From the NCBI GenBank assembly GCA_034926785.1, contig JAYFQU010000027.1, positions 11,400 through 75,399 of the forward strand: 64,000 nucleotides of DNA, in the 5' to 3' direction. Source of the DNA: Christensenella sp. Its GTDB lineage: Bacteria > Bacillota > Clostridia > Christensenellales > CAG-138. Each line of letters opens with the position of its first letter. The first letter of the stretch is position 1. The position numbers and the translations under genes are program-made. Below are positions 4,332 to 60,532 of this stretch, piece after piece. The notes beneath the pieces are model-generated. The model made no database searches, had not been told where the DNA came from, and saw nothing but the letters and a program-made list of their open reading frames with translations.

Positions 4332-5546
4332 ATGCGATTGGACGCAATCTGTGAGCGGCACGCAAACGGCGGACCGGGTGAGTTTATTCTTGCAAAGGCC
4401 GAAGAGGCGCTGCCGTCCCTATTGGAATCCTGCCGTGGGGATGTCCAGGTGGTCTATCTTGATCCTCCTTTTGGAACGGGCGATACATTTCATATGAAGA
4501 TTGGCGCGGGAAAACGCCAGCTGAGTCTACCTGTATATGCGGATAATATGGACGAGAGCGCATATTTGAGCTGGATGCGCATCATCCTCTGCGGCGCGCG
4601 AGATTTGCTCAGCGAATCCGGCTCGCTCTATCTGCATATTGACTATCGCATGAGCGCAAAGCTCAGGCTCCTTTTAGATGAGATCTTCGGCGCACAAAAC
4701 TTCATGAACGAAATCGTCTGGTGCTACAAGTCCGGCGGTCGCAGCACACGCTACTATCCGCGCAAACACGACACAATCCTGTTCTATCGCAAGAGCGCAA
4801 AGGTCTACTTTAACATTCAAGCGGTTGGCAGCCCTCGCGGGCCGGAAAAGCGCAACCACATGAAGCGCTTTATCGACGAGAACGGGCGCATCTGTTTCTC
4901 CATACGATCCGCAGGCAAGGTCTACACCTACTATGAAGATACGCTGGTGTATCCCAGCGACGTTTGGGACGATATCGAGCACCTTCAGCAAAAGGATACC
5001 GAGCGCGTCGGCTATGCCACACAAAAACCGGAGGCATTGCTCAACCGCATCCTCCTCGCATCGTCGAAACCGGGCGATCTTGTCTGTGACTTTTTCTCCG
5101 GCAGCGGAACAACAGCCGCGTCGGCCAGCAAACTCGGCAGGCGGTTTCTGGTGTTGGATGCCTCCCCGTTATCTCTCTACACGATCCGCGCACGGCAGTT
5201 GAAATCCGCCAGCGCGCATTCCATGCTCGAAGGAGACAAGGAACTCGTTTTGCGCTATCCGATGGATGCAACGCCGGCGGAATGCAAAGCCTCCGTCACA
5301 ACCATTCGCGGCGCGCGCATGCTCTCGCTCGAAAGCGCTGGCTTCCACGCCGCATATCCGATTGTTTACGCAGCGGTCGGCTCGGTTGCGGGCGATTGTT
5401 TTGTTCCGTTCGCAACGGACTGCCGCCCGAAGCTTCCATTGCTCCTGCCAATAGCAGATCTTGAAAATCCCGTCGTGCAGTTTGTTGACGCCATGGGACA
5501 TATGGCGTTTTTCACGGTTGATTCGTTTAACGGGAGTGTTGAATGA
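4332..5546 (+). CDS. Site-specific DNA methyltransferase (beta-class N6A/N4C type) with ~130-aa C-terminal domain of unknown function
   Basis: Motif IV VYLDPPFGTG precedes motif I DFFSGSGTTAASA, the beta-class order. RBS GGGAGGG lies upstream of ATG 4332. No restriction endonuclease gene is adjacent. Confidence 0.85.
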   Translation: MRLDAICERHANGGPGEFILAKAEEALPSLLESCRGDVQVVYLDPPFGTGDTFHMKIGAGKRQLSLPVYADNMDESAYLSWMRIILCGARDLLSESGSLYLHIDYRMSAKLRLLLDEIFGAQNFMNEIVWCYKSGGRSTRYYPRKHDTILFYRKSAKVYFNIQAVGSPRGPEKRNHMKRFIDENGRICFSIRSAGKVYTYYEDTLVYPSDVWDDIEHLQQKDTERVGYATQKPEALLNRILLASSKPGDLVCDFFSGSGTTAASASKLGRRFLVLDASPLSLYTIRARQLKSASAHSMLEGDKELVLRYPMDATPAECKASVTTIRGARMLSLESAGFHAAYPIVYAAVGSVAGDCFVPFATDCRPKLPLLLPIADLENPVVQFVDAMGHMAFFTVDSFNGSVE

Positions 5547-5737
5547 AAGAATTTATTCGCGCGCAGTATCCCGGCGACATCATACCCGGCTACTATACCG
5601 ATAAAAATCACTGGTGTTCCCTCTTTTGGGATAGCGCCGTGCCGGACGATATCACCCGAGCAATGCTTCACAATGGATATGAAACCACGCTCGCCAGCCT
5701 GACAAAAAAGGTGCGGGCGGCGATTCTAGAGAAATGA
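5543..5737 (+). CDS. MmcQ/YjbR-family protein, C-terminal half only (64 aa)
   Basis: GYYTDKNHWCSLFWDSAVPDDITRAML matches the ...NKKHW..V.LDG.vpd... half of YjbR-like proteins (~115 aa). ATGA overlap with the methyltransferase stop. Confidence 0.55.
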   Translation: MKEFIRAQYPGDIIPGYYTDKNHWCSLFWDSAVPDDITRAMLHNGYETTLASLTKKVRAAILEK

Positions 5738-5778
5738 TACGCTGACATTCTTGTCGCTTACCACCCGACCAGGCGTTT

Positions 5779-5973
5779 GAGACCGTCAAAAAAAAGAATT
5801 TTTTGGCGAGGCGACCGCTCTCCGTCTCTCGTCCTTCGGACTCTGAATGGTAAAAGCCGTGACGAAACGGCCCAATTTCGGGCAATCTGTCACGGTGGCA
5901 AAGCCACCGCAGCCGGAATCTGCGGGTGAAGGGCAGCGGTCCAAAACAGTCCCGGGTCTTTTTTGACAGACCG
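5779..5973 (+). repeat. Family-Y structured intergenic repeat, copy A (~195 bp)
   Basis: Aligns end to end with the reverse complement of 34565-34756. The two share an identical 22-mer GGCAAAGCCACCGCAGCCGGAA (5897-5918). Ends are GAGACCGTCAAAAAAAAG... and ...CTTTTTTGACAGACCG (imperfect TIR). Confidence 0.7.
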
Positions 5974-6061
5974 TGGCGTTTTGGTTTCGTTCATCATAAG
6001 TTCACGTTTAGAGAAAATCCCTGACTGGCAATATATGATCGTTTCAGGTATGATTTGCAAT

Positions 6062-27265: not shown

Positions 27266-28753
27266 TTAAAGCGTATAGAATAGCATGGATACGACGCTAT
27301 AGGCCGTAACCGCCGCAACGCCGACGGCAAACACCAGATTGCCCGTCGTCGTGTGCTTGCGCTTGATTCGTTCCAACGCCAGCGAAAGAGCGATTGCGCC
27401 AACAATCACGGTCGGAACAATATAGCGGAAGTCCATCGTGCAGCCATAGGGAAACCGAATGTTGAACAAAACAAAGAAACAAATTTGAATCAGCCAAAGC
27501 CAAACAAGGCCAAGGCGAACCAGCGGATGGACATCGTTCCCCCGAAACAGAAGATAGATCATAGCCGCAAGCGAAAGCGTCATTAACAACAGATTGGTCA
27601 AGACCAGCGCCTTCCCCAAGATATGGCTTTGATCATATGAATATTCGCCAAAGACAGAGCACTTAATGGTATAGAGCCAGAGACGATAGTCCCCAAATGG
27701 CTCGCAAAAAAGCGGGTTCCATATCTCACGAACCGGGATTGAAAAAAAACGCTCAGCGATGGACCGGTCTCCGCAATAGAGCTGCGGCAGGTTGATCGTC
27801 AGCACATAGTTCAGCGGTTGACCAAATTTGATCCAGTTCCGAACGGGATACCAGAACCCCAGCGGCACCGAGACGCCAAGAAACGCGCCAAACTGTCCAA
27901 CCAACGGGGCAGCTTTTCCGCGCTTGCCGTGCTGGATCAAGACAACGAGGAATACGGGCGCGATTAGAAACGCAACTGTCGCGGCGGAGATCTTCGTCAT
28001 CATCCCACAGCCGACGGAAAGCGCCAGCAGCAGGATGTTTTTCATGTTTGGTTTGTGATACCAGCATATGGTATACAGGATTGCGGTTCCATAAAACAGC
28101 AGCATCAGCGCGTCGTTGTTGATGCTGGAGGAGAGCAGATAGAACGTTGGCTGAAACGCAAAAATCGCCATGGCGATCACGGATGCGCGCGGGCCGAGTT
28201 TCAGCTCTCGGCAGATGCTGCGAAAAACAAAAAGCAGCGAACAGGTCGCCGTGCATGGCACGATTTTTGCCGACTCAAACAAGGCGTACAGGTCGGTATC
28301 CGGGCGAATCAACGCGTAGATTTTGACCACGATCGCCTGCAGGATATGCTGCAGCGGAGGATGATAGAACTGCACTTCATTCGTCGCGGGCAGCGTTCCG
28401 GTTGAGAAAATCTGATATACATAGTCCAAATGACCGCTTGCGTGAAAATCGCTGATATCATGCGCCCGTAGTTGCACATTTGTATAGAGCATATAACCGA
28501 TGCGCAGGAACATTCCGAGGGCAATGATCCCCGCGATCAGCACCTCCGGCCAGTTCTTCCGTTTTTTTAACAGGAGAAACGTGCCGACCGCCGTATATGC
28601 CAGAATGCCTGCCAGCATAAGCAGCCGAATGCTCTTTTCGTTTAAATGAAGCTGCCATTGGATAACCGTATAAGCGGCAATCACCAGCGCCGCCGTGAGC
28701 AGATATGGCAGGGCGCCGAATAGCAGCGCGCTATTTTGCCGACTTTTGCTCAT
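27266..28753 (-). CDS. Polytopic membrane glycosyltransferase, GT39/ArnT-like
   Basis: ~495 aa with more than 10 TM helices. Lies in an operon with GtrA and a FAD oxidoreductase. Start ATG 28753 preferred over GTG 28777. Confidence 0.6.
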
Positions 28754-31713: not shown

Positions 31714-31853
31714 GCCGCAGCCTCCAGCCGGATCAGATCATTAAGAGTATATCAGAAATTCTACCCGCTGGGCGAATAACCTGTTTAAATAGTTGAACCA
31801 GCGCGTCGCCGCAATGACCGTCTATCCAAAAAGAATCCGCAGATCTGCGGGTT

Positions 31854-32024
31854 CAGCCCATCGACAAAGTCCTGCGGACTCTGCCGATGGGTTTTACTTT
31901 GGGTTAAAATGACGCGAATCGCGCCATTTTTTCACAAATTCGGCGAATAAATCGCCAAATTTGAAGGAACATGAGGGATTTTCGAAATCCCCCAAACCCC
32001 CTACTGGGTTTGTTGATGCTCTGC
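31854..32024 (-). mobile_element. Family-X MITE-like structured repeat, copy 1 (171 bp)
   Basis: Plus strand CAGCCCATCGAC...GTTGATGCTCTGC with 12-nt imperfect TIRs. Bracketed by 24-nt direct repeats AAAGAAYCCGCAGATCTGCGGGTT at 31830-31853 and 32025-32048. ~96% identical to 40827-40996. Confidence 0.75.
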
Positions 32025-32065
32025 AAAGAACCCGCAGATCTGCGGGTTCTTTGGCGGGCAATCGA

Positions 32066-33112: not shown

Positions 33113-33846
33113 GCCGCGCCGCCTTTCGTTCCGCTGCGCTTTGCTGATTCGATAAACGTCGCTTCCAGCGTTCCAAACACGGTCTTTGCCTTTAGTGCAT
33201 CCGGCGTTCCGTCCTGAATAATCTTTCCATCTCGCAACAGAATCAATCGGTCGCACTTCTCCGCCTCGTCCATGACGTGCGTGGTCACGATAATCGCCCG
33301 GCCGAGCCCTTTAAGCCGCCGAAACTCCGCCCAGAAAAGTTCCCGCAGCACAGGATCAATCCCGACCGTCGGCTCGTCCAGAACGATCACATCCGGGTCG
33401 CCGATCAACGCCGCAGTCAACGACAGGCGCCGCTTCATCCCGCCGGAGTAGAACACCGCCTTCTTGTTTTCATCCCGATCCAGCTCCACAAGGCGCATCA
33501 GGTCGTGCGCCTGATCGGTAGCGGCGCGCTTTGTCATCCCTTTAAGCCGCGCAAAGAACACGAGATTTTCCAGCCCGGTCAGGTCTTCGTAGAGTGCGTC
33601 CTGCTGAGCCATATAGCCGATATGGTCCATCTGCTTTAGATTTGGCATCTTGACCCCCTGAATGCCGATCTCTCCCGCCTCCAGACGCAATGTGCCAAGC
33701 AGGCATTTCACAAGCGTCGTCTTCCCCGCGCCGGAAGGGCCAAGGACGCCGAGTATCTCCCCCTGCTGTAAAGATAAATCCACGCTGCGCAGCACCTCTT
33801 CGCTGCCGAAGCGTTTGACCAGATGTTGTGCCGCAATCACCTGCAT
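33109..33846 (-). CDS. ABC transporter ATP-binding protein
   Basis: Walker A GPSGAGKTT, signature YSGGMKRRL, Walker B VIVLDEP. Confidence 0.93.
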   Translation of the reverse strand: MQVIAAQHLVKRFGSEEVLRSVDLSLQQGEILGVLGPSGAGKTTLVKCLLGTLRLEAGEIGIQGVKMPNLKQMDHIGYMAQQDALYEDLTGLENLVFFARLKGMTKRAATDQAHDLMRLVELDRDENKKAVFYSGGMKRRLSLTAALIGDPDVIVLDEPTVGIDPVLRELFWAEFRRLKGLGRAIIVTTHVMDEAEKCDRLILLRDGKIIQDGTPDALKAKTVFGTLEATFIESAKRSGTKGGAA

Positions 33847-34484
33847 CGCTCATTCCATCCTTTCATGATACAATCCAAAAATCGCGCGACTTCCATAACA
33901 TCGCCCGAACCCGGCGTTCCGCCAAACATCGTATACGTGAGGATAAAACCCATCAGCTGCAGCATCGCCAGATGCGGATCGAGTTCGGACGAAATCTCCC
34001 CGCGCGGTTTTCCGTAGTCAATCACCTTCGTCACATACTGCTCAATCATCGGCATTATGGTCTCGCGCATTTGTTGGAGCAGCGGCGCGCGGTGGATCAG
34101 CTCCGGCAGAACGGATTTGATAAACCGCTCATTCTCTCGAATTACCTGAATGCGATCCAGTATAATCGCCTGAAAGATATCCCGCGCCGGCGCATCGTTA
34201 TACTCAATTAAAATCTGGTCGATCGGTTTGCTGATCTTCGGCAGCATCACGCGAATCAACAGCGGAACCATACGCTCTAAAATCGCATTCTTCGTTGGAA
34301 AATAGCGAAAAATCGTGCCCTCCGCTATGCCGGCGCGCTCGGCAATCTCTCTTGTACGCGTTGCCTCAAACCCTTTTTCCGAAAAGGCGTTGATCGCTGC
34401 ATTGATGATTTTAATTTCTTTGTCGGGCGAATTCTCGATATAGTCATGCAAGAACTCCGAGATATCGTAGCTGCTCTTCTGCAA
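33837..34484 (-). CDS. TetR/AcrR family transcriptional regulator
   Basis: INAAINAFSEKGFEATRTREIAERAGIAEGTIFRYF is the TetR HTH. It overlaps the ABC ATPase start by 10 nt. Confidence 0.9.
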   Translation of the reverse strand: MQKSSYDISEFLHDYIENSPDKEIKIINAAINAFSEKGFEATRTREIAERAGIAEGTIFRYFPTKNAILERMVPLLIRVMLPKISKPIDQILIEYNDAPARDIFQAIILDRIQVIRENERFIKSVLPELIHRAPLLQQMRETIMPMIEQYVTKVIDYGKPRGEISSELDPHLAMLQLMGFILTYTMFGGTPGSGDVMEVARFLDCIMKGWNERCR

Positions 34485-34564
34485 TGAAATCCCTCCATAT
34501 CAAGCAATGAGTGATTACTCACTCATGCTATTACAAAACAAAAGGCATGTCAATCGCATGCCTT

Positions 34565-34756
34565 CAGCCTGTTAAAAAAGTCTCGGGATTGTTAAGGCCG
34601 CGGCCTTACCCCATCGGTTCCGGCTGCGGTGGCTTTGCCGCCGCAACGGATCGCCCGGAATCGGGCGTTTCTTCGCAGCTCTTTGCCGTTCGGAGTCCGG
34701 AGGACGGGAGGCAAAGAGCGGTTGCCCCGTCAAAAAACTCTTTTTTTGACGGCCTC
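34565..34756 (-). mobile_element. Family-Y MITE-like structured repeat, copy B (192 bp)
   Basis: Plus strand CAGCCTGTTAAAAAAG...CTCTTTTTTTGACGGCCTC (imperfect TIR). Bracketed by perfect 23-nt direct repeats AAGGCATGTCAATCGCATGCCTT at 34542-34564 and 34757-34779. Confidence 0.75.
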
Positions 34757-34792
34757 AAGGCATGTCAATCGCATGCCTTGTTGTTTAGCAGG

Positions 34793-36388
34793 TTAGTTTT
34801 CGCTGGCAGGAGCGATATCAAGGAACTTCACATCCTTGTTCTTCTCTTCCATTCGGCTCAACGACCATTCATTTTTATAGAGTACCACCGGGCGCTGATA
34901 TTGATCCTCTAGCAGCATTGTGTCCGTATACGCCAGCATATCTTTATTGAAGTGGTCCGTCACCACCCAGCGCGCGAGCTGATACGGCAGGTTACGGATG
35001 CTGACTTCGACGTTGTATTCGTTCTTGAGCCGATATTCCAGCACCTCAAACTGAAGCGCGCCCGCAACGCCTATGGTATACATTTCGATGCCGAGATCGG
35101 GTTGCTTGAAGAGCTGAATCGCACCTTCCTCGGAGATTTGCTTGATCCCCTTTAGAAACTGTTTCCGCTTACCGGAATCGATGGTATGCACCTCGGCAAA
35201 ATGCTCCGAGGGGAACATCGGAATCCCTTCAAATCGAAACGCATTCTTTCCGCCGCAGAGCGTATCGCCAATCAGGAAGCAACCGGGATCAAATACGCCG
35301 ATGATATCGCCCGCATAGGCTTCCTCCACACTGATGCGCTCCTGCGCCAGAAACTGTTGAGACTGGGCAAGCCGCAGGGTTTTGTTCGTACGCTGGTGAA
35401 CAACCTCCATGCCTTTTTCAAATTTGCCGGAGCAGATTCGCATAAAGGCAATGCGATCTCGGTGCGCGGGATCCATATTTGCCTGAATTTTAAATACAAA
35501 GCCGGAGAAGTCATCGCTATCCGGCGCAATGCTGCCGTCGCTGTGCTGTTTGACGCCCGGGGACGGCGCCATCTGAATAAACGCCTCCAGAAACGGACGC
35601 ACGCCAAAGTTCGTCATCGCGCTGCCAAAGAACATCGGCGTCAACTCGCCCGCGCGCACCTTGTCCATGTCCAGCTCGTCACCGGCAATCTCCAGCAGTT
35701 CGATTTCCTCAAGCAGTTTATCGTAGAGGTGATCCCCCAGCAGTGCGCGAAACCGCGGATCGTCTACATCGCCGGAGTCGGACTGCGTCGTCTCCTGTCC
35801 GTGGCTTCCGCCTTCGAATAGCTCAATTCGCCTCGTTGTGCGATCATAGACCCCCCGAAAATCGCCATCAATGCCGATCGGCCAATTCATTGGATAGGAC
35901 CGGATCCCAAGTACGGATTCGATCTCCTCCATCAGCGCGAGCGGGTTTTTGCAGAAGCGATCCAGCTTATTGACGAATGTGAAAATTGGCACGCCGAACA
36001 TACGGCAGACATGGAAGAGCTTCTTCGTCTGCTCCTCAACGCCCTTTGCGCCGTCGATGAGCATGACCGCGCTGTCCGCCGCCGTCAGCGTTCGATAGGT
36101 GTCCTCACTAAAATCCTGATGCCCTGGGGTGTCGAGAATGTTGATTCGAAACCCCTGATAATCAAAATTGAGTACGCTGGAGGTGACGGAAATTCCCCTC
36201 TGCTTCTCGATTTCCATCCAGTCGGATACGGCGAACTTGCTCGCCTTTCGCCCTTTGACCGTTCCCGCGAGGCGAATCGCCCCGCCGAAGAGCAGCAGCT
36301 TCTCCGTGAGCGTCGTTTTGCCCGCGTCCGGGTGGGATATGATCGCAAATGTCTTTCTGCGGTTTACTTCGTTCGTCAAACTACCCAT
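34793..36388 (-). CDS. prfC: Peptide chain release factor 3
   Basis: RRKTFAIISHPDAGKTTLTEKLL, DTPGHQDF, 531 aa. Confidence 0.95.
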   Translation of the reverse strand: MGSLTNEVNRRKTFAIISHPDAGKTTLTEKLLLFGGAIRLAGTVKGRKASKFAVSDWMEIEKQRGISVTSSVLNFDYQGFRINILDTPGHQDFSEDTYRTLTAADSAVMLIDGAKGVEEQTKKLFHVCRMFGVPIFTFVNKLDRFCKNPLALMEEIESVLGIRSYPMNWPIGIDGDFRGVYDRTTRRIELFEGGSHGQETTQSDSGDVDDPRFRALLGDHLYDKLLEEIELLEIAGDELDMDKVRAGELTPMFFGSAMTNFGVRPFLEAFIQMAPSPGVKQHSDGSIAPDSDDFSGFVFKIQANMDPAHRDRIAFMRICSGKFEKGMEVVHQRTNKTLRLAQSQQFLAQERISVEEAYAGDIIGVFDPGCFLIGDTLCGGKNAFRFEGIPMFPSEHFAEVHTIDSGKRKQFLKGIKQISEEGAIQLFKQPDLGIEMYTIGVAGALQFEVLEYRLKNEYNVEVSIRNLPYQLARWVVTDHFNKDMLAYTDTMLLEDQYQRPVVLYKNEWSLSRMEEKNKDVKFLDIAPASEN

Positions 36389-36541: not shown

Positions 36542-36617
36542 TGGTGGAGCATGGGGGATTCGAACCCCCGACCTCAACATTGCGAACGTTGCGCGCTACC
36601 AACTGTGCTAATGCCCC
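36542..36617 (-). tRNA. tRNA-Ala (anticodon CGC)
   Basis: Reverse complement GGGGCATTAGCACAGTTGGTAGCGCGCAACGTTCGCAATGTTGAGGTCGGGGGTTCGAATCCCCCATGCTCCACCA folds as a cloverleaf. It has the G3:U70 Ala identity pair, anticodon loop TTCGCAA and an encoded CCA. Confidence 0.93.
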
Positions 36618-40754: not shown

Positions 40755-40826
40755 TCTCAGACATCCGCGGAACAGCCCGTCTCCTTGTAGCCCATTGTAC
40801 AAAAAAACACGCCGGGTGTCCGGCGT

Positions 40827-40996
40827 CAGCCCATCGACAAAGTCCCGCGGACTCTGCCGATGGGTTTTACTTTGGGTTAAAATGACGCGAATCGCGCCAT
40901 TTTTTCACAAATTCGGCGAATGAATCGCCAAATTTGAAGGAACATGGGGGATTTTCGAAATCCCCCAACCCCCTACCGGGTTTGCTGATGCTCTGC
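40827..40996 (-). mobile_element. Family-X MITE-like structured repeat, copy 2 (170 bp)
   Basis: Differs from copy 1 by 5 substitutions and one 1-nt indel. Bracketed by 17-nt direct repeats CGCCGGKTGTCCGGCGT at 40810-40826 and 40997-41013. Confidence 0.75.
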
Positions 40997-41029
40997 CGCC
41001 GGTTGTCCGGCGTATTGTTGTTATTTGCA

Positions 41030-42334: not shown

Positions 42335-42410
42335 TGGCGCGCCTGGCAGGATTTGAACCTGCGACCTACCGGTTCGTAGCCGGGCACTCTATCCACTGAG
42401 CTACAAGCGC
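42335..42410 (-). tRNA. tRNA-Arg (anticodon ACG)
   Basis: Reverse complement GCGCTTGTAGCTCAGTGGATAGAGTGCCCGGCTACGAACCGGTAGGTCGCAGGTTCAAATCCTGCCAGGCGCGCCA folds as a cloverleaf with anticodon loop CTACGAA and an encoded CCA. Confidence 0.92.
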
Positions 42411-54896: not shown

Positions 54897-54915
54897 ACTC
54901 CAGACAAACACAAAA

Positions 54916-54950
54916 ACAGGCATACGGCTATCCGCACGCCTGTTTTTGTT
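54916..54950. terminator. Bidirectional terminator between ThiF-like gene and pyrG
   Basis: AAAAACAGGC-...-GCCTGTTTTTG. Confidence 0.7.
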
Positions 54951-58758: not shown

Positions 58759-59994
58759 CTATTTCTTCTGAAAAAAACGCTCGCCATAGCCATAGTGCTC
58801 AAAGACATAATCGATGTCCTTGTCGCCTCTGCCGGAGAGATTCACAAGGATTGAGCCGCGGCTGTTCTCCCTGGCAAAGCGCATGGCGTAAGCCAGCGCA
58901 TGCGAGCTTTCGATGGCCGGGATGATGCCCTCATAGCGGCTGAGGTAGAAGAACGCTTCCATGGCCTCCTCGTCCGTTACGCTGGTATACTTCACGCGGC
59001 CGACGTCATGCATAAACGCATGCTCGGGTCCGACGGCCGGGTAATCCAGACCGCTGGCAATGCTGTAGACCGGCAGCGGCTCGCCCGCTTCATCCTGCAG
59101 CAAAAGGCTCTCAAAGCCGTGCAATACGCCTTTTTTGCCGAAGGTAATGGAGGCCGCGTTGTCGCCGATGTTGGAGCCGCGCCCCATTGGTTCTACGCCG
59201 ACAATCTCGACCGGCTCTTCATAGAAGGTTGTGAACATGCCCGCGGCATTGGATCCGCCGCCAACGCAAGCGGTTACGACATCCGGCAGGAGGCCGGTCA
59301 TTTCAACGAACTGTTCCTTTGCTTCGATGCCGACCACCATCTGAAAATCACGCACCATCTTCGGGAAGGGATGCGGACCGACAACGGAACCGATGCAGTA
59401 AATCGCATCCTCATACTCACCCAGATATGCCATAAAGGCCGCGTCAACCGCCTCCTTAAGGGTCTTGAGGCCATGCGAAACGGGGATCACACGCGCGCCG
59501 AGCATCTTCATGCGGGTTACGTTGGGCGCCTGCTTTGCGATGTCTACCTCACCCATATAGATGTCGCACTCCAAGCCGAAATAGGCTGCGGCCGTTGCGA
59601 GCGCAACGCCGTGCTGACCGGCGCCGGTCTCTGCGATCAGCTTCTTCTTCCCAAGGAATTTGGCGAGCAGCCCTTCCCCCATGCAGTGGTTAATCTTGTG
59701 CGCGCCAGTGTGGTTGAGATCTTCCCGCTTGAGGTAGATCTGCGTCTTGCCGAGCAGCCGGCTCAGGCGTTCCGCGTGGTAAACCGGCGTTGGGCGTCCC
59801 TGAAACTCCTTGCGGATTCTGCGCAGTTCGCTGATGAATTGCGCGCTGTGGCAGATGGTCTCATAGGCATCGTCAATCTCCTTGAACACGGGCACGAGCT
59901 GCGGCGGCAGGAACGCGCCGCCATATTCGCCAAAGCGGCCGTTTTCGTCGGGGTAGAGCTTGACATAGTTGGTAAAGTCTTTGTAGGTCATCAT
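58759..59994 (-). CDS. trpB: Tryptophan synthase beta subunit (stand-alone)
   Basis: [15 protein letters not shown], the PLP-lysine motif [11 protein letters not shown], and GGGSNAAG. Start trimmed to ATG 59994/59991; the upstream ORF extension is the T-box leader. Confidence 0.93.
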
Positions 59995-60059
59995 ATTGTT
60001 TTTCCTTGCCCGCCGTTGGCCGCGGACGTTGTTCCTTTCGTAATTTTCATTTTTAAATT

Positions 60060-60335
60060 TTGTGGCAAATAAAAACGCCCTCGTCTCGACGCTTACGCCG
60101 AAACAAGGACGATGCTCTCGCGGTGCCACCTTGTTTCCCGAATAGAATTCGGGCTCTTTACGGAAATGCCAACACATCTCCCGCGATATAACGGTCACGA
60201 CCCGTCGCAGGATACTTTTGTTTCCCCTGCGCGCTCGGCGGTCCATTTGAACGATCGTTTCCTGCAGGGCTTGCACCATTACCCCGCTCTCTGAGAGGTC
60301 GTATTCGTCCGTTATCTCCGCTTCACAGCTTATGA
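60060..60335 (-). promoter_or_regulatory. T-box leader, tryptophan specifier (UGG)
   Basis: Minus strand shows the Stem I AG box AGAGAG, the distal GGTGCAAG, and specifier AAA-TGG-A directly 5' of the closing helix CCGC. T-box sequence AAACAAGGTGGCACCGCGAG lies at 60117-60136. The terminator (60067-60111) is CGTCCTTGTTTCG...CGAGACGAGGGCG plus TTTTTATTT. Confidence 0.88.
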
Positions 60336-60339
60336 AGGG

Positions 60340-60368
60340 ATTATACCCAAGAGCAGCGCAGGCGTCAA
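60340..60368 (-). promoter_or_regulatory. Promoter of the T-box/trpB unit
   Basis: Minus strand reads TTGACG (60363-60368), 17 nt, TATAAT (60340-60345). Confidence 0.75.
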
Positions 60369-60532
60369 GCATGAATTTATGTTTTTTTATCTTTTTCCCA
60401 AATGAGAAAATATCACGGTTCGGTTGAACTAAAGTGTGTTATGTGCGATAATACACTTATGTTACTGATCGATATCAATAAAACGAATCGCAAGATCAAT
60501 GTCGTTTATTGTTCGCACGAAAGGAAAGGCAC

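What the first reader, a model, noticed from the sequence alone, without database searches (positions are those of the whole stretch)
34542..34779. Family-Y element (copy B) bracketed by a perfect 23-bp duplication of the prfC terminator hairpin
Downstream of prfC (stop at 34793, minus strand) the sequence AAGGCATGTCAATCGCATGCCTT occurs twice, perfectly, at 34542-34564 and 34757-34779. It is a hairpin with stem AAGGCATG/CATGCCTT. The two copies enclose a 192-bp insert. Only the distal copy is followed, on the minus strand, by a T-rich run (TTGTTTTG). The insert is unrelated in sequence to family X but has the same architecture. It has the same CAGCC-type terminus next to the T-tract hairpin (CAGCCTGTTAAAAAAG) and an inverted partner at the other end (GAGGCCGTCAAAAAAAG). 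It is packed with hairpins (CCGTCAAAAAA..TTTTTTGACGG, GCTCTTTGCC..GGCAAAGAGC, CGCCCG..CGGGCG, AAGGCC-GC-GGCCTT). Two sequence-unrelated families with the same end motif, orientation rule and hairpin-duplicating footprint suggest one shared mobilisation mechanism that targets terminator stem-loops.
Basis: seen in the sequence. Interest (0 to 1): 0.7.

Follow-up and report, generated by a model that had tools for sequence, protein, structure and literature searches.

The report
Small transposon that duplicates terminator hairpins
A 192-bp non-coding mobile element inserted at the transcription terminator of prfC and copied the whole 23-bp terminator hairpin to both of its sides. Its relatives did the same at other terminators, which points to a transposase that recognises DNA hairpin structure rather than sequence and leaves the host's terminators and promoters working.

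Summary
AAGGCATGTCAATCGCATGCCTT occurs perfectly at 34542-34564 and 34757-34779 and brackets a 192-bp insert (34565-34756).

Four related genomes have a 92-bp prfC-TetR spacer with one hairpin plus T-run and no insert. The 192 bp are therefore an insertion, and the 23-bp repeat is a target-site duplication (TSD) equal to the whole stem-loop.

Family Y has at least four copies in this uncultured Christensenella-like population. It is non-coding, has imperfect terminal inverted repeats (core CyGTCAAAAAAG) and has no Rfam match.

All six insertions seen, four of family Y and two of family X, abut a hairpin. Four sites could be checked against relatives, and each relative has a single terminator hairpin there. 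TSD length follows hairpin size: about 11, 17, 23, 24 and about 35 bp.

- X and Y are not fully unrelated. Their left ends share 14 of 16 bases (p about 1e-5).
- "CAGCC" is not conserved among Y copies.
- The orientation rule is unproven.

Best explanation: these are MITEs moved in trans by an unidentified, probably DDE-type, transposase that joins the element's ends at the two feet of an extruded hairpin. The closest known relative is IS1272/TnSha1 (IS1182 family), which targets terminator hairpins but deletes them. I rate this a new variant of a known kind.

The parts
34565..34756 (+). Family-Y element, copy B. A 192-bp non-coding insert (MITE). Its 'left' end is at 34565.
   Evidence: Absent from the orthologous spacer of L005-L008. 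It is 92% identical to copies Y-C and Y-D and 79-83% identical to Y-A. No ORF is conserved between copies. No Rfam match.
34542..34564 (-). Target-site duplication, the copy distal to prfC. It is the complete prfC terminator stem-loop and, on the minus strand, is followed by the T-run TTGTTTTG (34534-34541). It also contains the -35 box TTGACA (34548-34553) of the TetR promoter.
   Evidence: The single homologous hairpin plus T-run, with TTGACA, is seen in relatives.
34757..34779 (-). Target-site duplication, the copy proximal to prfC. It is the same stem-loop but is followed by the element end instead of a T-run.
   Evidence: It is 23 of 23 identical to 34542-34564.
34565..34580 (+). Left terminal inverted repeat, CAGCCTGTTAAAAAAG.
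   Evidence: It aligns with the left ends of Y-A, Y-C and Y-D and with the left end of family X.
34740..34756 (+). Right terminal inverted repeat, CTTTTTTTGACGGCCTC (reverse complement GAGGCCGTCAAAAAAAG). It is part of a terminal hairpin at 34727-34752, CCGTCAAAAAA-CTC-TTTTTTTGACGG.
5779..5973 (-). Family-Y element, copy A, an older subfamily. It is inserted at the terminator hairpin downstream of the DNA-methylase gene.
   Evidence: Relatives L012 and L013 lack it and have one hairpin, AACGCCC-GTTT-GGGCGTT, at this position.
5760..5778 (.). Full-length but decayed copy of the target hairpin next to the right end of Y-A. The matching partial copy AAACGCC[AC]GG lies at 5971-5981, which gives a TSD of about 10-13 bp.
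   Evidence: fold energy -1.7 kcal/mol here against -11.0 in the relative.
31854..32024 (+). Family-X copy 1 (171 bp). Its TSDs are 31830-31853 and 32025-32048: 24 bp, 1 mismatch, covering the whole hairpin plus 3 nt of the T-run.
   Evidence: (D9). The empty site in L005 has one hairpin.
40827..40996 (+). Family-X copy 2 (170 bp). Its TSDs are 40810-40826 and 40997-41013: 17 bp, with 1 mismatch in the loop.
   Evidence: The empty site in L006 and L007 has one hairpin.
34793..36388 (-). prfC (peptide chain release factor 3), whose terminator was the target.
33837..34484 (-). TetR-family regulator downstream. Its promoter (-35 at 34548-34553, -10 at 34525-34530) and its operator palindrome (34507-34526) are left intact by the insertion.
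   Evidence: The operator and -35 are conserved in relatives.

Best explanation
Family Y is a non-autonomous DNA transposon (MITE) of about 192 bp. It has imperfect 16-17-bp terminal inverted repeats (core C-y-G-T-C-A6-G) and no coding capacity. At least four copies exist in one uncultured Christensenella-like population.

Shown: copy B inserted at the intrinsic terminator of prfC. The insertion created a perfect direct duplication of the complete 23-bp stem-loop. The other Y copies and both X copies also sit at hairpins, and the duplication length follows the size of the local hairpin.

Inferred mechanism: a transposase supplied in trans (not in the window and not identified, most likely DDE-type) captures the target as a structure, either an extruded cruciform or a hairpin. 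It joins the two 3' ends of the element to the two strands at opposite feet of the stem-loop, within 0-5 nt. Gap repair then copies the whole stem-loop onto both sides. The structure of the target, not the geometry of the enzyme, therefore sets the TSD length.

Consequence (inferred): the distal copy keeps its T-run, and here also the -35 box of the TetR promoter. Termination of prfC and expression of TetR are therefore preserved, which makes terminators safe landing sites.

Families X and Y share a homologous left terminus and are probably moved by the same or closely related enzymes. An IS1182-family enzyme is the leading candidate, at roughly 35% on its own.
For: - Empty sites. L005-L008 have a 92-bp prfC-TetR spacer with one hairpin plus T-run, against 308 bp here. 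The difference is 192 + 23 + 1 bp. The same holds for X1, X2 and Y-A. All four testable sites agree.
- The duplication is perfect and unique.
- New copies at unrelated loci in the same population also abut hairpins. Y-C is flanked by a 35-36-bp duplicated hairpin with identical stems and 3 loop or loop-junction differences. The left end of Y-D abuts AAAGCCCCCGCGTAAGCGGGGGCTTT.
- TSDs of 23, about 35, 24 and 17 bp each span the local stem-loop plus or minus 0-5 nt.
- Terminal inverted repeats are present in every copy.
- The left ends of X and Y match at 14 of 16 bases, p about 1e-5.
- No ORF is conserved between copies, and a six-frame protein search found nothing.
- Substitutions between copies keep and break predicted pairs about equally (13 against 14). 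This is the neutral expectation, so there is no sign of a selected RNA.
- Published precedent. IS1272/TnSha1 (IS1182 family) target terminator hairpins with no sequence consensus (PMC4923244; PMC5678879). The model of Wan et al. explicitly predicts whole stem-loop duplication if joining occurs at the 5' feet (PMC5678879, Fig 13 pathway b).
Against: - No transposase or full-length parent IS with matching ends was found. None is in the window (Pfam; synteny gene lists). None is in about 230 kb of related loci.
- The tips of Y copies vary (CAG, CGG, TGG, TCG), which is unusual for DDE transposon ends.
- Y-A duplicated only about 10-13 bp, so joining is not always at both feet.
- The characterised IS1182-family members delete the hairpin rather than duplicate it.
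- Only six insertions were seen, all from one population. Cruciform against single-strand hairpin capture cannot be distinguished from sequence.
Confidence: 0.8

Rival explanations
1. The element is moved by a transposase that simply makes long, variable staggered cuts, as reported for IS1634/IS1549-type elements. It does not recognise structure, and the coincidence with hairpins only reflects survival of insertions in intergenic terminators.
For: TSD length is variable, about 11 to about 35 bp. Intergenic insertions are the ones expected to survive selection.
Against: In four of five complete cases the TSD boundaries fall within 0-5 nt of the feet of the local stem-loop, and all six insertions abut a hairpin. 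Random long staggers in spacers of 90-190 bp would rarely frame a hairpin exactly.
Confidence: 0.07
2. The element is a single-strand, HUH-type mobile element: an IS200/IS605-derived palindrome-associated element, or a REP/RAYT-like element. Such an element would recognise hairpins on single-stranded DNA.
For: Hairpins overlap the ends of both families, at the right end of Y (34727-34752) and the left end of X. The targets are hairpins.
Against: Such elements insert without target duplication, lack terminal inverted repeats, and insert next to a conserved tetra- or pentanucleotide (established knowledge of IS200/IS605 and REP/RAYT). Here there are TSDs of 11-36 bp, terminal inverted repeats, and target hairpins unrelated in sequence.
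Confidence: 0.05
3. The terminator was already tandemly duplicated before the element arrived, and the element merely inserted between two pre-existing hairpins.
For: Tandem terminators do occur in bacteria. The proximal copy has no T-run, which could be read as a degenerate older terminator.
Against: Relatives have a single hairpin at all four sites examined. Five independent insertions each carry a duplication of their own local hairpin, and in Y-B it is perfect at 23 of 23. No duplicated hairpin without an insert was found in the window or in any fetched locus.
Confidence: 0.03
4. The 192-bp unit is a structured non-coding RNA gene or a functional 3'-UTR module of prfC, not a mobile element.
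For: The predicted structure is very stable, z = -6.5 and -7.8. An internal terminator-like hairpin lies at 34652-34667. A 22-nt block is identical in all copies.
Against: It is absent from orthologous sites in relatives. It is present at unrelated loci in either orientation relative to neighbouring genes. There is no Rfam match, even at E up to 10. Pair-keeping and pair-breaking substitutions are balanced, 13 against 14.
Confidence: 0.03

Closest known systems
IS1272 / TnSha1 (IS1182 family, staphylococci)
   Same: These elements target hairpin structures, mostly confirmed transcription terminators, with no primary-sequence consensus and in either orientation. Target stem-loops of 21-85 bp are reported (PMC4923244; PMC5678879). 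Both papers cite Siguier et al. 2015 as saying that other IS1182-family members target palindromes. From my own memory, ISfinder lists direct repeats of 0-60 bp for this family.
   Different: IS1272 and TnSha1 replace or partly delete the stem-loop and leave no TSD. X and Y duplicate it. Whole stem-loop duplication appears in that literature only as a hypothetical branch (Fig 13 pathway b). No IS1182-type transposase, and no IS with matching ends, has been linked to X or Y.
Classical bacterial MITEs (Correia/NEMIS, RUP, ERIC, Chunjie, MITEAba12 and others)
   Same: Small size, no coding capacity, terminal inverted repeats, a TSD, multiple diverged copies, intergenic location and strong secondary structure (review PMC10969869).
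   Different: Known MITEs have short TSDs of fixed length (2-10 bp) set by the parent transposase. The review does not describe a TSD that equals a whole terminator stem-loop or that varies with the target.
IS elements that insert into REP/BIME palindromes (for example IS1397 and ISKpn1; survey in PMC1525189)
   Same: Extragenic palindromes serve as targets.
   Different: Those elements recognise a specific repeated REP family and, from memory, make short TSDs inside the palindrome. Here the targets are unrelated, single-copy terminator hairpins, and the whole hairpin is duplicated.
IS1634 / IS1549-type elements with long, variable direct repeats (from memory)
   Same: The TSD can be tens of bp long and varies between insertions.
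   Different: As far as I know, no relation between TSD boundaries and stem-loop feet has been reported for them.
CRISPR spacer integration by Cas1-Cas2, and casposon integration (analogy only)
   Same: Staggered joining at the two borders of a, often palindromic, repeat duplicates the whole repeat.
   Different: The enzyme family is different and the reaction is sequence- and leader-dependent. Nothing links X or Y to Cas1.

Membership tests
MITE (non-autonomous TIR transposon) | Small size (under about 500 bp) and no coding capacity | tested here: met
   The copies are 192-195 bp. Open frames differ between copies. A six-frame pseudo-protein search found no called protein.
MITE (non-autonomous TIR transposon) | Terminal inverted repeats | tested here: met
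   The left end is (CAG)CCTGTTAAAAAAG and the reverse complement of the right end is (GAG)GCCGTCAAAAAAAG. The same core is present in all copies. The repeats are imperfect and the tips vary.
MITE (non-autonomous TIR transposon) | Target-site duplication, shown by comparison with an empty site | tested here: met
   Y-B has 23 of 23, with empty sites in L005-L008. Y-A has about 10-13 bp, with empty sites in L012 and L013.
MITE (non-autonomous TIR transposon) | Multiple dispersed copies | tested here: met
   Four copies were found at four unrelated loci: window 5779-5973, window 34565-34756, L010 and L009.
MITE (non-autonomous TIR transposon) | A cognate autonomous IS with matching ends in the same genome or lineage | not testable with these tools
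   None was found in the window or in the fetched loci.
IS1182-family-dependent element | Target is a palindrome or stem-loop, without a sequence consensus | tested here: met
   All six insertions are at hairpins that are unrelated in sequence.
IS1182-family-dependent element | Ends match those of an IS1182-family IS, or an IS1182-type DDE transposase is present in the host | not tested
   No IS1182-family sequence from this lineage was available for comparison.
IS1182-family-dependent element | Outcome at the target as in the characterised members IS1272/TnSha1: stem-loop replaced or deleted, no TSD | tested here: not met
   The stem-loop is duplicated, not deleted. This argues against 'behaves like IS1272' but does not exclude the family.
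IS200/IS605-derived element or REP/RAYT | No TSD, no TIR, and insertion next to a conserved short motif | tested here: not met
   TSDs of 11-36 bp and terminal inverted repeats are present, and the flanks share no common motif.
Structured ncRNA family | Conserved synteny, covariation that supports a structure, and/or a match to a curated family | tested here: not met
   The unit is absent from orthologous sites. There is no Rfam match. One compensatory pair, 13 wobble-kept pairs and 14 broken pairs were counted among three copies, which is too few sequences for a strong test.

The most novel reading that the evidence does not exclude
X and Y may be moved by a transposase of a kind not yet characterised, or by an uncharacterised branch of IS1182. 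In this reading the stagger is not fixed by the enzyme. The enzyme docks on an extruded stem-loop and joins at its two feet, so the target's own structure sets a TSD of 17-36 bp and every hop makes a tandem terminator.

A corollary is that the strings of GC-rich, partly terminator-like hairpins that make up the interiors of both families could be former target hairpins taken into the element after imprecise end choice. The elements would then grow by collecting terminators.
Probability: 0.3. Interest if true: 0.7.

Novelty: new variant of a known kind. Interest (0 to 1): 0.55.

Why it matters
Transposases normally leave a target duplication of fixed length, which serves as a signature of the enzyme family. 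Here the duplication ranges from 17 to about 35 bp and matches the local stem-loop. This is direct genomic evidence for structure-guided target capture with duplication, an outcome that had been drawn only as a hypothetical pathway for IS1272.

It also shows a neat way for a parasite to be harmless. By rebuilding the terminator, and here the -35 box of the downstream TetR promoter, on its far side, the element leaves both flanking genes functional.

There are practical consequences too. Such elements create tandem or orphan terminators, lengthen 3' UTRs by about 200 nt and break short-read assemblies. Their footprint, hairpin-element-hairpin, is a simple search key for finding more of them and their enzyme in uncultured Firmicutes.

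Tried and rejected
- Rfam, over the whole window at gathering threshold and over the locus at E up to 10, gave nothing credible.
- The genome-contig scan with the 20-mer CCGGCTGCGGTGGCTTTGCC returned only three chance hits, in Paraburkholderia, a Bacteroidales MAG and a haloarchaeon.
- BLAST of Y against plasmids and phages found no match.
- Viral-contig scans with Y and X patterns found nothing, apart from one 21-nt match in an AT-rich phage contig (L023). That match lies inside a small ORF with no transposase or partner end, so I judged it chance.
- A six-frame pseudo-protein of Y, used to fish for spurious ORFs called on other copies, returned no hit.
- A search for other hairpin-bracketed insertions, or for inverted pairs of Y-type ends 0.8-3 kb apart (a possible parent IS), covered the window and about 230 kb of related loci. 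It found only the known copies.
- An empty site for Y-C could not be obtained. Relatives have a different gene downstream of the DeoR regulator. The right flank of Y-D could not be obtained either, because every available contig ends at or inside the element.
- RNA-level selection was considered and not supported: kept and broken pairs are balanced.
- The L-end-like matches at 1748-1763 and 28563-28574 lie in coding sequence without hairpins and were dismissed as chance.
- The reviews by Siguier et al. that describe IS1182 target preferences are not held in the library. That point therefore rests on secondary citation and on my memory.

Full report
**Observation.** The sequence at 34300-35000 was read directly. 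AAGGCATGTCAATCGCATGCCTT occurs at 34542-34564 and again at 34757-34779, both perfect. No other site in the 64-kb window matches with up to 3 mismatches, and none is expected by chance. The two copies enclose 34565-34756, a 192-bp insert. The 23-mer is a stem-loop with an 8-bp stem AAGGCATG/CATGCCTT, about -10 kcal/mol.

prfC is the 531-aa ORF 34793-36388 on the minus strand. The TetR-family gene is 33837-34484 on the minus strand. On the minus strand only the copy at 34542-34564 is followed by a T-run (TTGTTTTG, 34534-34541) and is called terminator-like. The copy next to prfC runs straight into the element end GAGGCCGTCAAAAAAAG. Every factual statement in the finding is correct.

**Is it an insertion?** The window comes from an uncultured Clostridia lineage. 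The nearest prfC proteins are 88-91% identical and come from metagenomes. A protein from a contig of the same population is annotated 'Christensenella sp.' / bioreactor metagenome.

I fetched orthologous loci through members of the prfC protein cluster. In L005 (prfC 85.6% nucleotide identity) and in L006, L007 and L008, the prfC-TetR spacer is 92 bp. It contains one hairpin followed by a T-run, then the conserved TetR operator and start. The window's spacer is 308 bp. The difference of 216 bp equals the 192-bp insert, the 23-bp repeat and one further base (an indel elsewhere in the spacer).

The 23-bp repeat is a target-site duplication (TSD) made on insertion, and it equals the whole stem-loop.

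**The family.** A second copy, Y-A, lies at 5779-5973 on the minus strand and is 79-83% identical. A metagenome scan with a 26-nt conserved block returned three contigs from one bioreactor assembly.
- L011 is 100% identical to the window around Y-A, so it is the same population.
- L010 carries a complete new copy, Y-C, 92% identical to Y-B.
- L009 carries a copy, Y-D, cut off by the contig end.

The copies align end to end. They share the termini (n-n-G-n)C-y-G-T-C-A6-G on the left and its inverted partner on the right. No reading frame is conserved between copies, a six-frame protein search found nothing, and Rfam has no match.

The element folds very stably on either strand. However, among the substitutions that separate Y-A from Y-B and Y-C, 13 keep a predicted pair through a wobble and 14 break it. 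That is the neutral expectation for transitions, so nothing indicates a selected RNA structure. Family Y meets the definition of a MITE except that no parent IS is known.

**Target rule.** Every insertion I could examine is at a hairpin.

| Insertion | Target and duplication | Empty site in relatives |
|---|---|---|
| Y-B | 23-bp TSD, exactly the stem-loop | One hairpin + T-run (L005-L008) |
| Y-C | Between convergent genes; flanked by ACGCCCGCGT(C)...loop...(G)ACGCGGGCGTTTGG on both sides; 35-36 bp; stems identical; 3 differences confined to the loop and its junction | Not obtainable |
| Y-D | Left end abuts AAAGCCCCCGC-GTAA-GCGGGGGCTTT; right side not assembled | Not obtainable |
| X1 | 24-bp TSD, 1 mismatch; hairpin plus 3 nt of its T-run | One hairpin (L005) |
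| X2 | 17-bp TSD, 1 loop mismatch | One hairpin (L006, L007) |
| Y-A | About 10-13 bp (see below) | One hairpin (L012, L013) |

Y-A needed a separate check. Relatives L012 and L013 have a single terminator hairpin, AACGCCC-GTTT-GGGCGTT, downstream of the DNA-methylase gene. The window has a full-length but decayed copy of it on one side of Y-A (5760-5778, -1.7 against -11.0 kcal/mol). On the other side there is only AAACGCC[AC]GG (5971-5981). This older insertion therefore duplicated only about 10-13 bp, roughly one arm.

In summary, all six insertions are at hairpins unrelated in sequence. At all four sites that could be tested, relatives have one hairpin. In four of five complete cases the TSD spans the entire stem-loop within 0-5 nt, so TSD length (17, 23, 24, about 35 bp) follows the target and not the element.

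A scan of the window and of all fetched loci for duplicated hairpins found only these cases. It found no duplicated hairpin without an insert.

**Relationship of X and Y.** Overall the two families do not align. Their left termini, however, are homologous. X reads CAGCCCATCGACAAAGTCCTGCGG and Y-C reads TGGTCTGTCAACAAAGTCCTGGGA, which share 14 of 16 bases in the best window. That match was reached by 1 in 100,000 composition-preserving shuffles. The right ends resemble each other more weakly (p about 0.08).

A second short match, 14 of 15 bases, links the hairpin at the left end of X to an internal Y hairpin (GAGTCCGnAGGAC) in inverted orientation. This strengthens the case for a shared or related transposase and corrects the description 'unrelated in sequence'.

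The literal CAGCC tip is not conserved among Y copies, which have CGGTC, TGGTC or TCGTC.

The orientation rule, left end next to the hairpin that bears the T-run, holds for Y-A, Y-B, X1 and X2. In Y-C the right end faces the stronger T-run, at a bidirectional terminator. In Y-D the left end faces the upstream gene. The rule is therefore unproven.

**Mechanism.**
- Shown: insertion, target duplication, hairpin targets, terminal inverted repeats, and several copies.
- Inferred: a trans-acting transposase, most simply DDE-type, captures the terminator as a structure. It joins the element's 3' ends to the two strands at opposite feet of the stem-loop, and repair of the two single-stranded stem-loops gives the duplication.

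This is exactly 'pathway b' in the model that Wan et al. drew for IS1272 (PMC5678879). The characterised IS1182-family elements IS1272 and TnSha1 do target terminator hairpins with no sequence consensus, but they delete the stem-loop and leave no TSD (PMC4923244; PMC5678879). Both papers cite Siguier et al. 2015 for other IS1182 members that target palindromes. From memory, ISfinder gives direct repeats of 0-60 bp for that family.

I could not identify the enzyme. There is no transposase in the window (Pfam on 30 ORFs; the rest is covered by the synteny gene lists). There is no larger element with Y-type ends in any locus held. The public-collection scans were exhausted.

**Consequence for the host (inferred).** The -35 box TTGACA of the TetR promoter lies inside the prfC terminator hairpin (34548-34553), with the -10 at 34525-34530 and the operator palindrome at 34507-34526. 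All of these are conserved in relatives. Because the whole hairpin was duplicated, the distal copy still supplies both a hairpin with a T-run for prfC and a complete promoter for TetR. The proximal copy has lost its T-run, so prfC transcripts probably extend about 215 nt through Y.

**Rivals.**
- A non-mobile structured RNA is excluded by the empty sites and the dispersed copies.
- Pre-existing tandem terminators are excluded by four single-hairpin empty sites and five independent local duplications.
- HUH or single-strand elements (IS200/IS605-like, REP/RAYT) do not make TSDs and lack terminal inverted repeats.
- A transposase with long random staggers does not explain why TSD boundaries fall at stem feet.

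**Novelty and score.** MITEs and hairpin-targeting IS elements are both known. A MITE whose duplication is the whole terminator stem-loop and varies with it does not appear in the MITE review or in the other literature I could search. I rate it a new variant of a known kind, with interest 0.55. The main gaps are the missing transposase and the small number of copies.

Noticed in passing
window 31854-31877 and 40827-40850 (family X left ends), compared with 34565-34590, 5944-5973 and L010 about 1450-1479 (family Y left ends): The left termini of the 'unrelated' families X and Y are homologous. They share TC(G/A)ACAAAGTCCTG(C/G)G, 14 of 16 bases, shuffle p about 1e-5. The hairpin at the left end of X also matches an internal Y hairpin (GAGTCCGnAGGAC) at 14 of 15 bases, in inverted orientation.
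   Followed up: partly
window 34507-34553: The -35 box (TTGACA, 34548-34553) of the TetR-gene promoter lies inside the prfC terminator hairpin. The -10 is at 34525-34530, and a 20-nt operator-like palindrome, ATGAGTGATTACTCACTCAT, is at 34507-34526. All are conserved in relatives, so terminator and promoter overlap.
   Followed up: partly
window 5695-5710 (inside ORF 5543-5737): CAGCCTGACAAAAAAG matches the Y-B left terminus at 14 of 16 bases and lies about 70 nt from Y-A. It sits inside a 64-aa fragment of a YjbR-family gene. The whole 5547-5744 stretch is absent from relatives, which have about 110 nt of unrelated spacer there. It could be a solo end, a remnant of another element, or coincidence. 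A local-alignment test against shuffles was not significant.
   Followed up: partly
L010 1252-1284 and 1480-1511: The two copies of the hairpin duplicated by Y-C have identical stems but differ at three positions in the loop and at the stem-loop junction. The stems may be conserved by selection or by gene conversion while the loops drift.
   Followed up: no
L004 (ends at window 34519), L009/L015 (end inside Y-D), L016 (ends just after the upstream gene): Short-read contigs of this population repeatedly break at or just before Y copies. This fits a multi-copy repeat, and the true copy number is probably well above the four seen.
   Followed up: no
window 32024-32053: The proximal TSD copy of X1 plus flanking bases forms a perfect 30-bp palindrome, CAAAGAACCCGCAGATCTGCGGGTTCTTTG. 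Its stem is longer than that of the ancestral hairpin because the duplicated TTT pairs with upstream AAA.
   Followed up: no
window 34652-34667, and the interiors of X (31857-32010) and Y: Both families are strings of 4-5 GC-rich hairpins. Some are followed by T-rich tails, for example CGCCCGGAATCGGGCG+TTTCTT in Y and GACGCGAATCGCGCC+ATTTTTT in X. They could be former target terminators taken into the elements. This is speculation and was not tested.
   Followed up: no
window 54910-54949: A 40-nt imperfect palindrome (85%) lies between the convergent ThiF-family and CTP-synthase genes. It is probably a bidirectional terminator, and it is unoccupied by any element.
   Followed up: no
window 60102-60335, 36545-36617 and 42338-42410: There is a T-box leader (106 bits) on the minus strand upstream of a PALP-domain enzyme gene, and the mechanical ORF 58759-60372 overruns it. 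Two tRNA genes lie on the minus strand, one of them just upstream of prfC.
   Followed up: no
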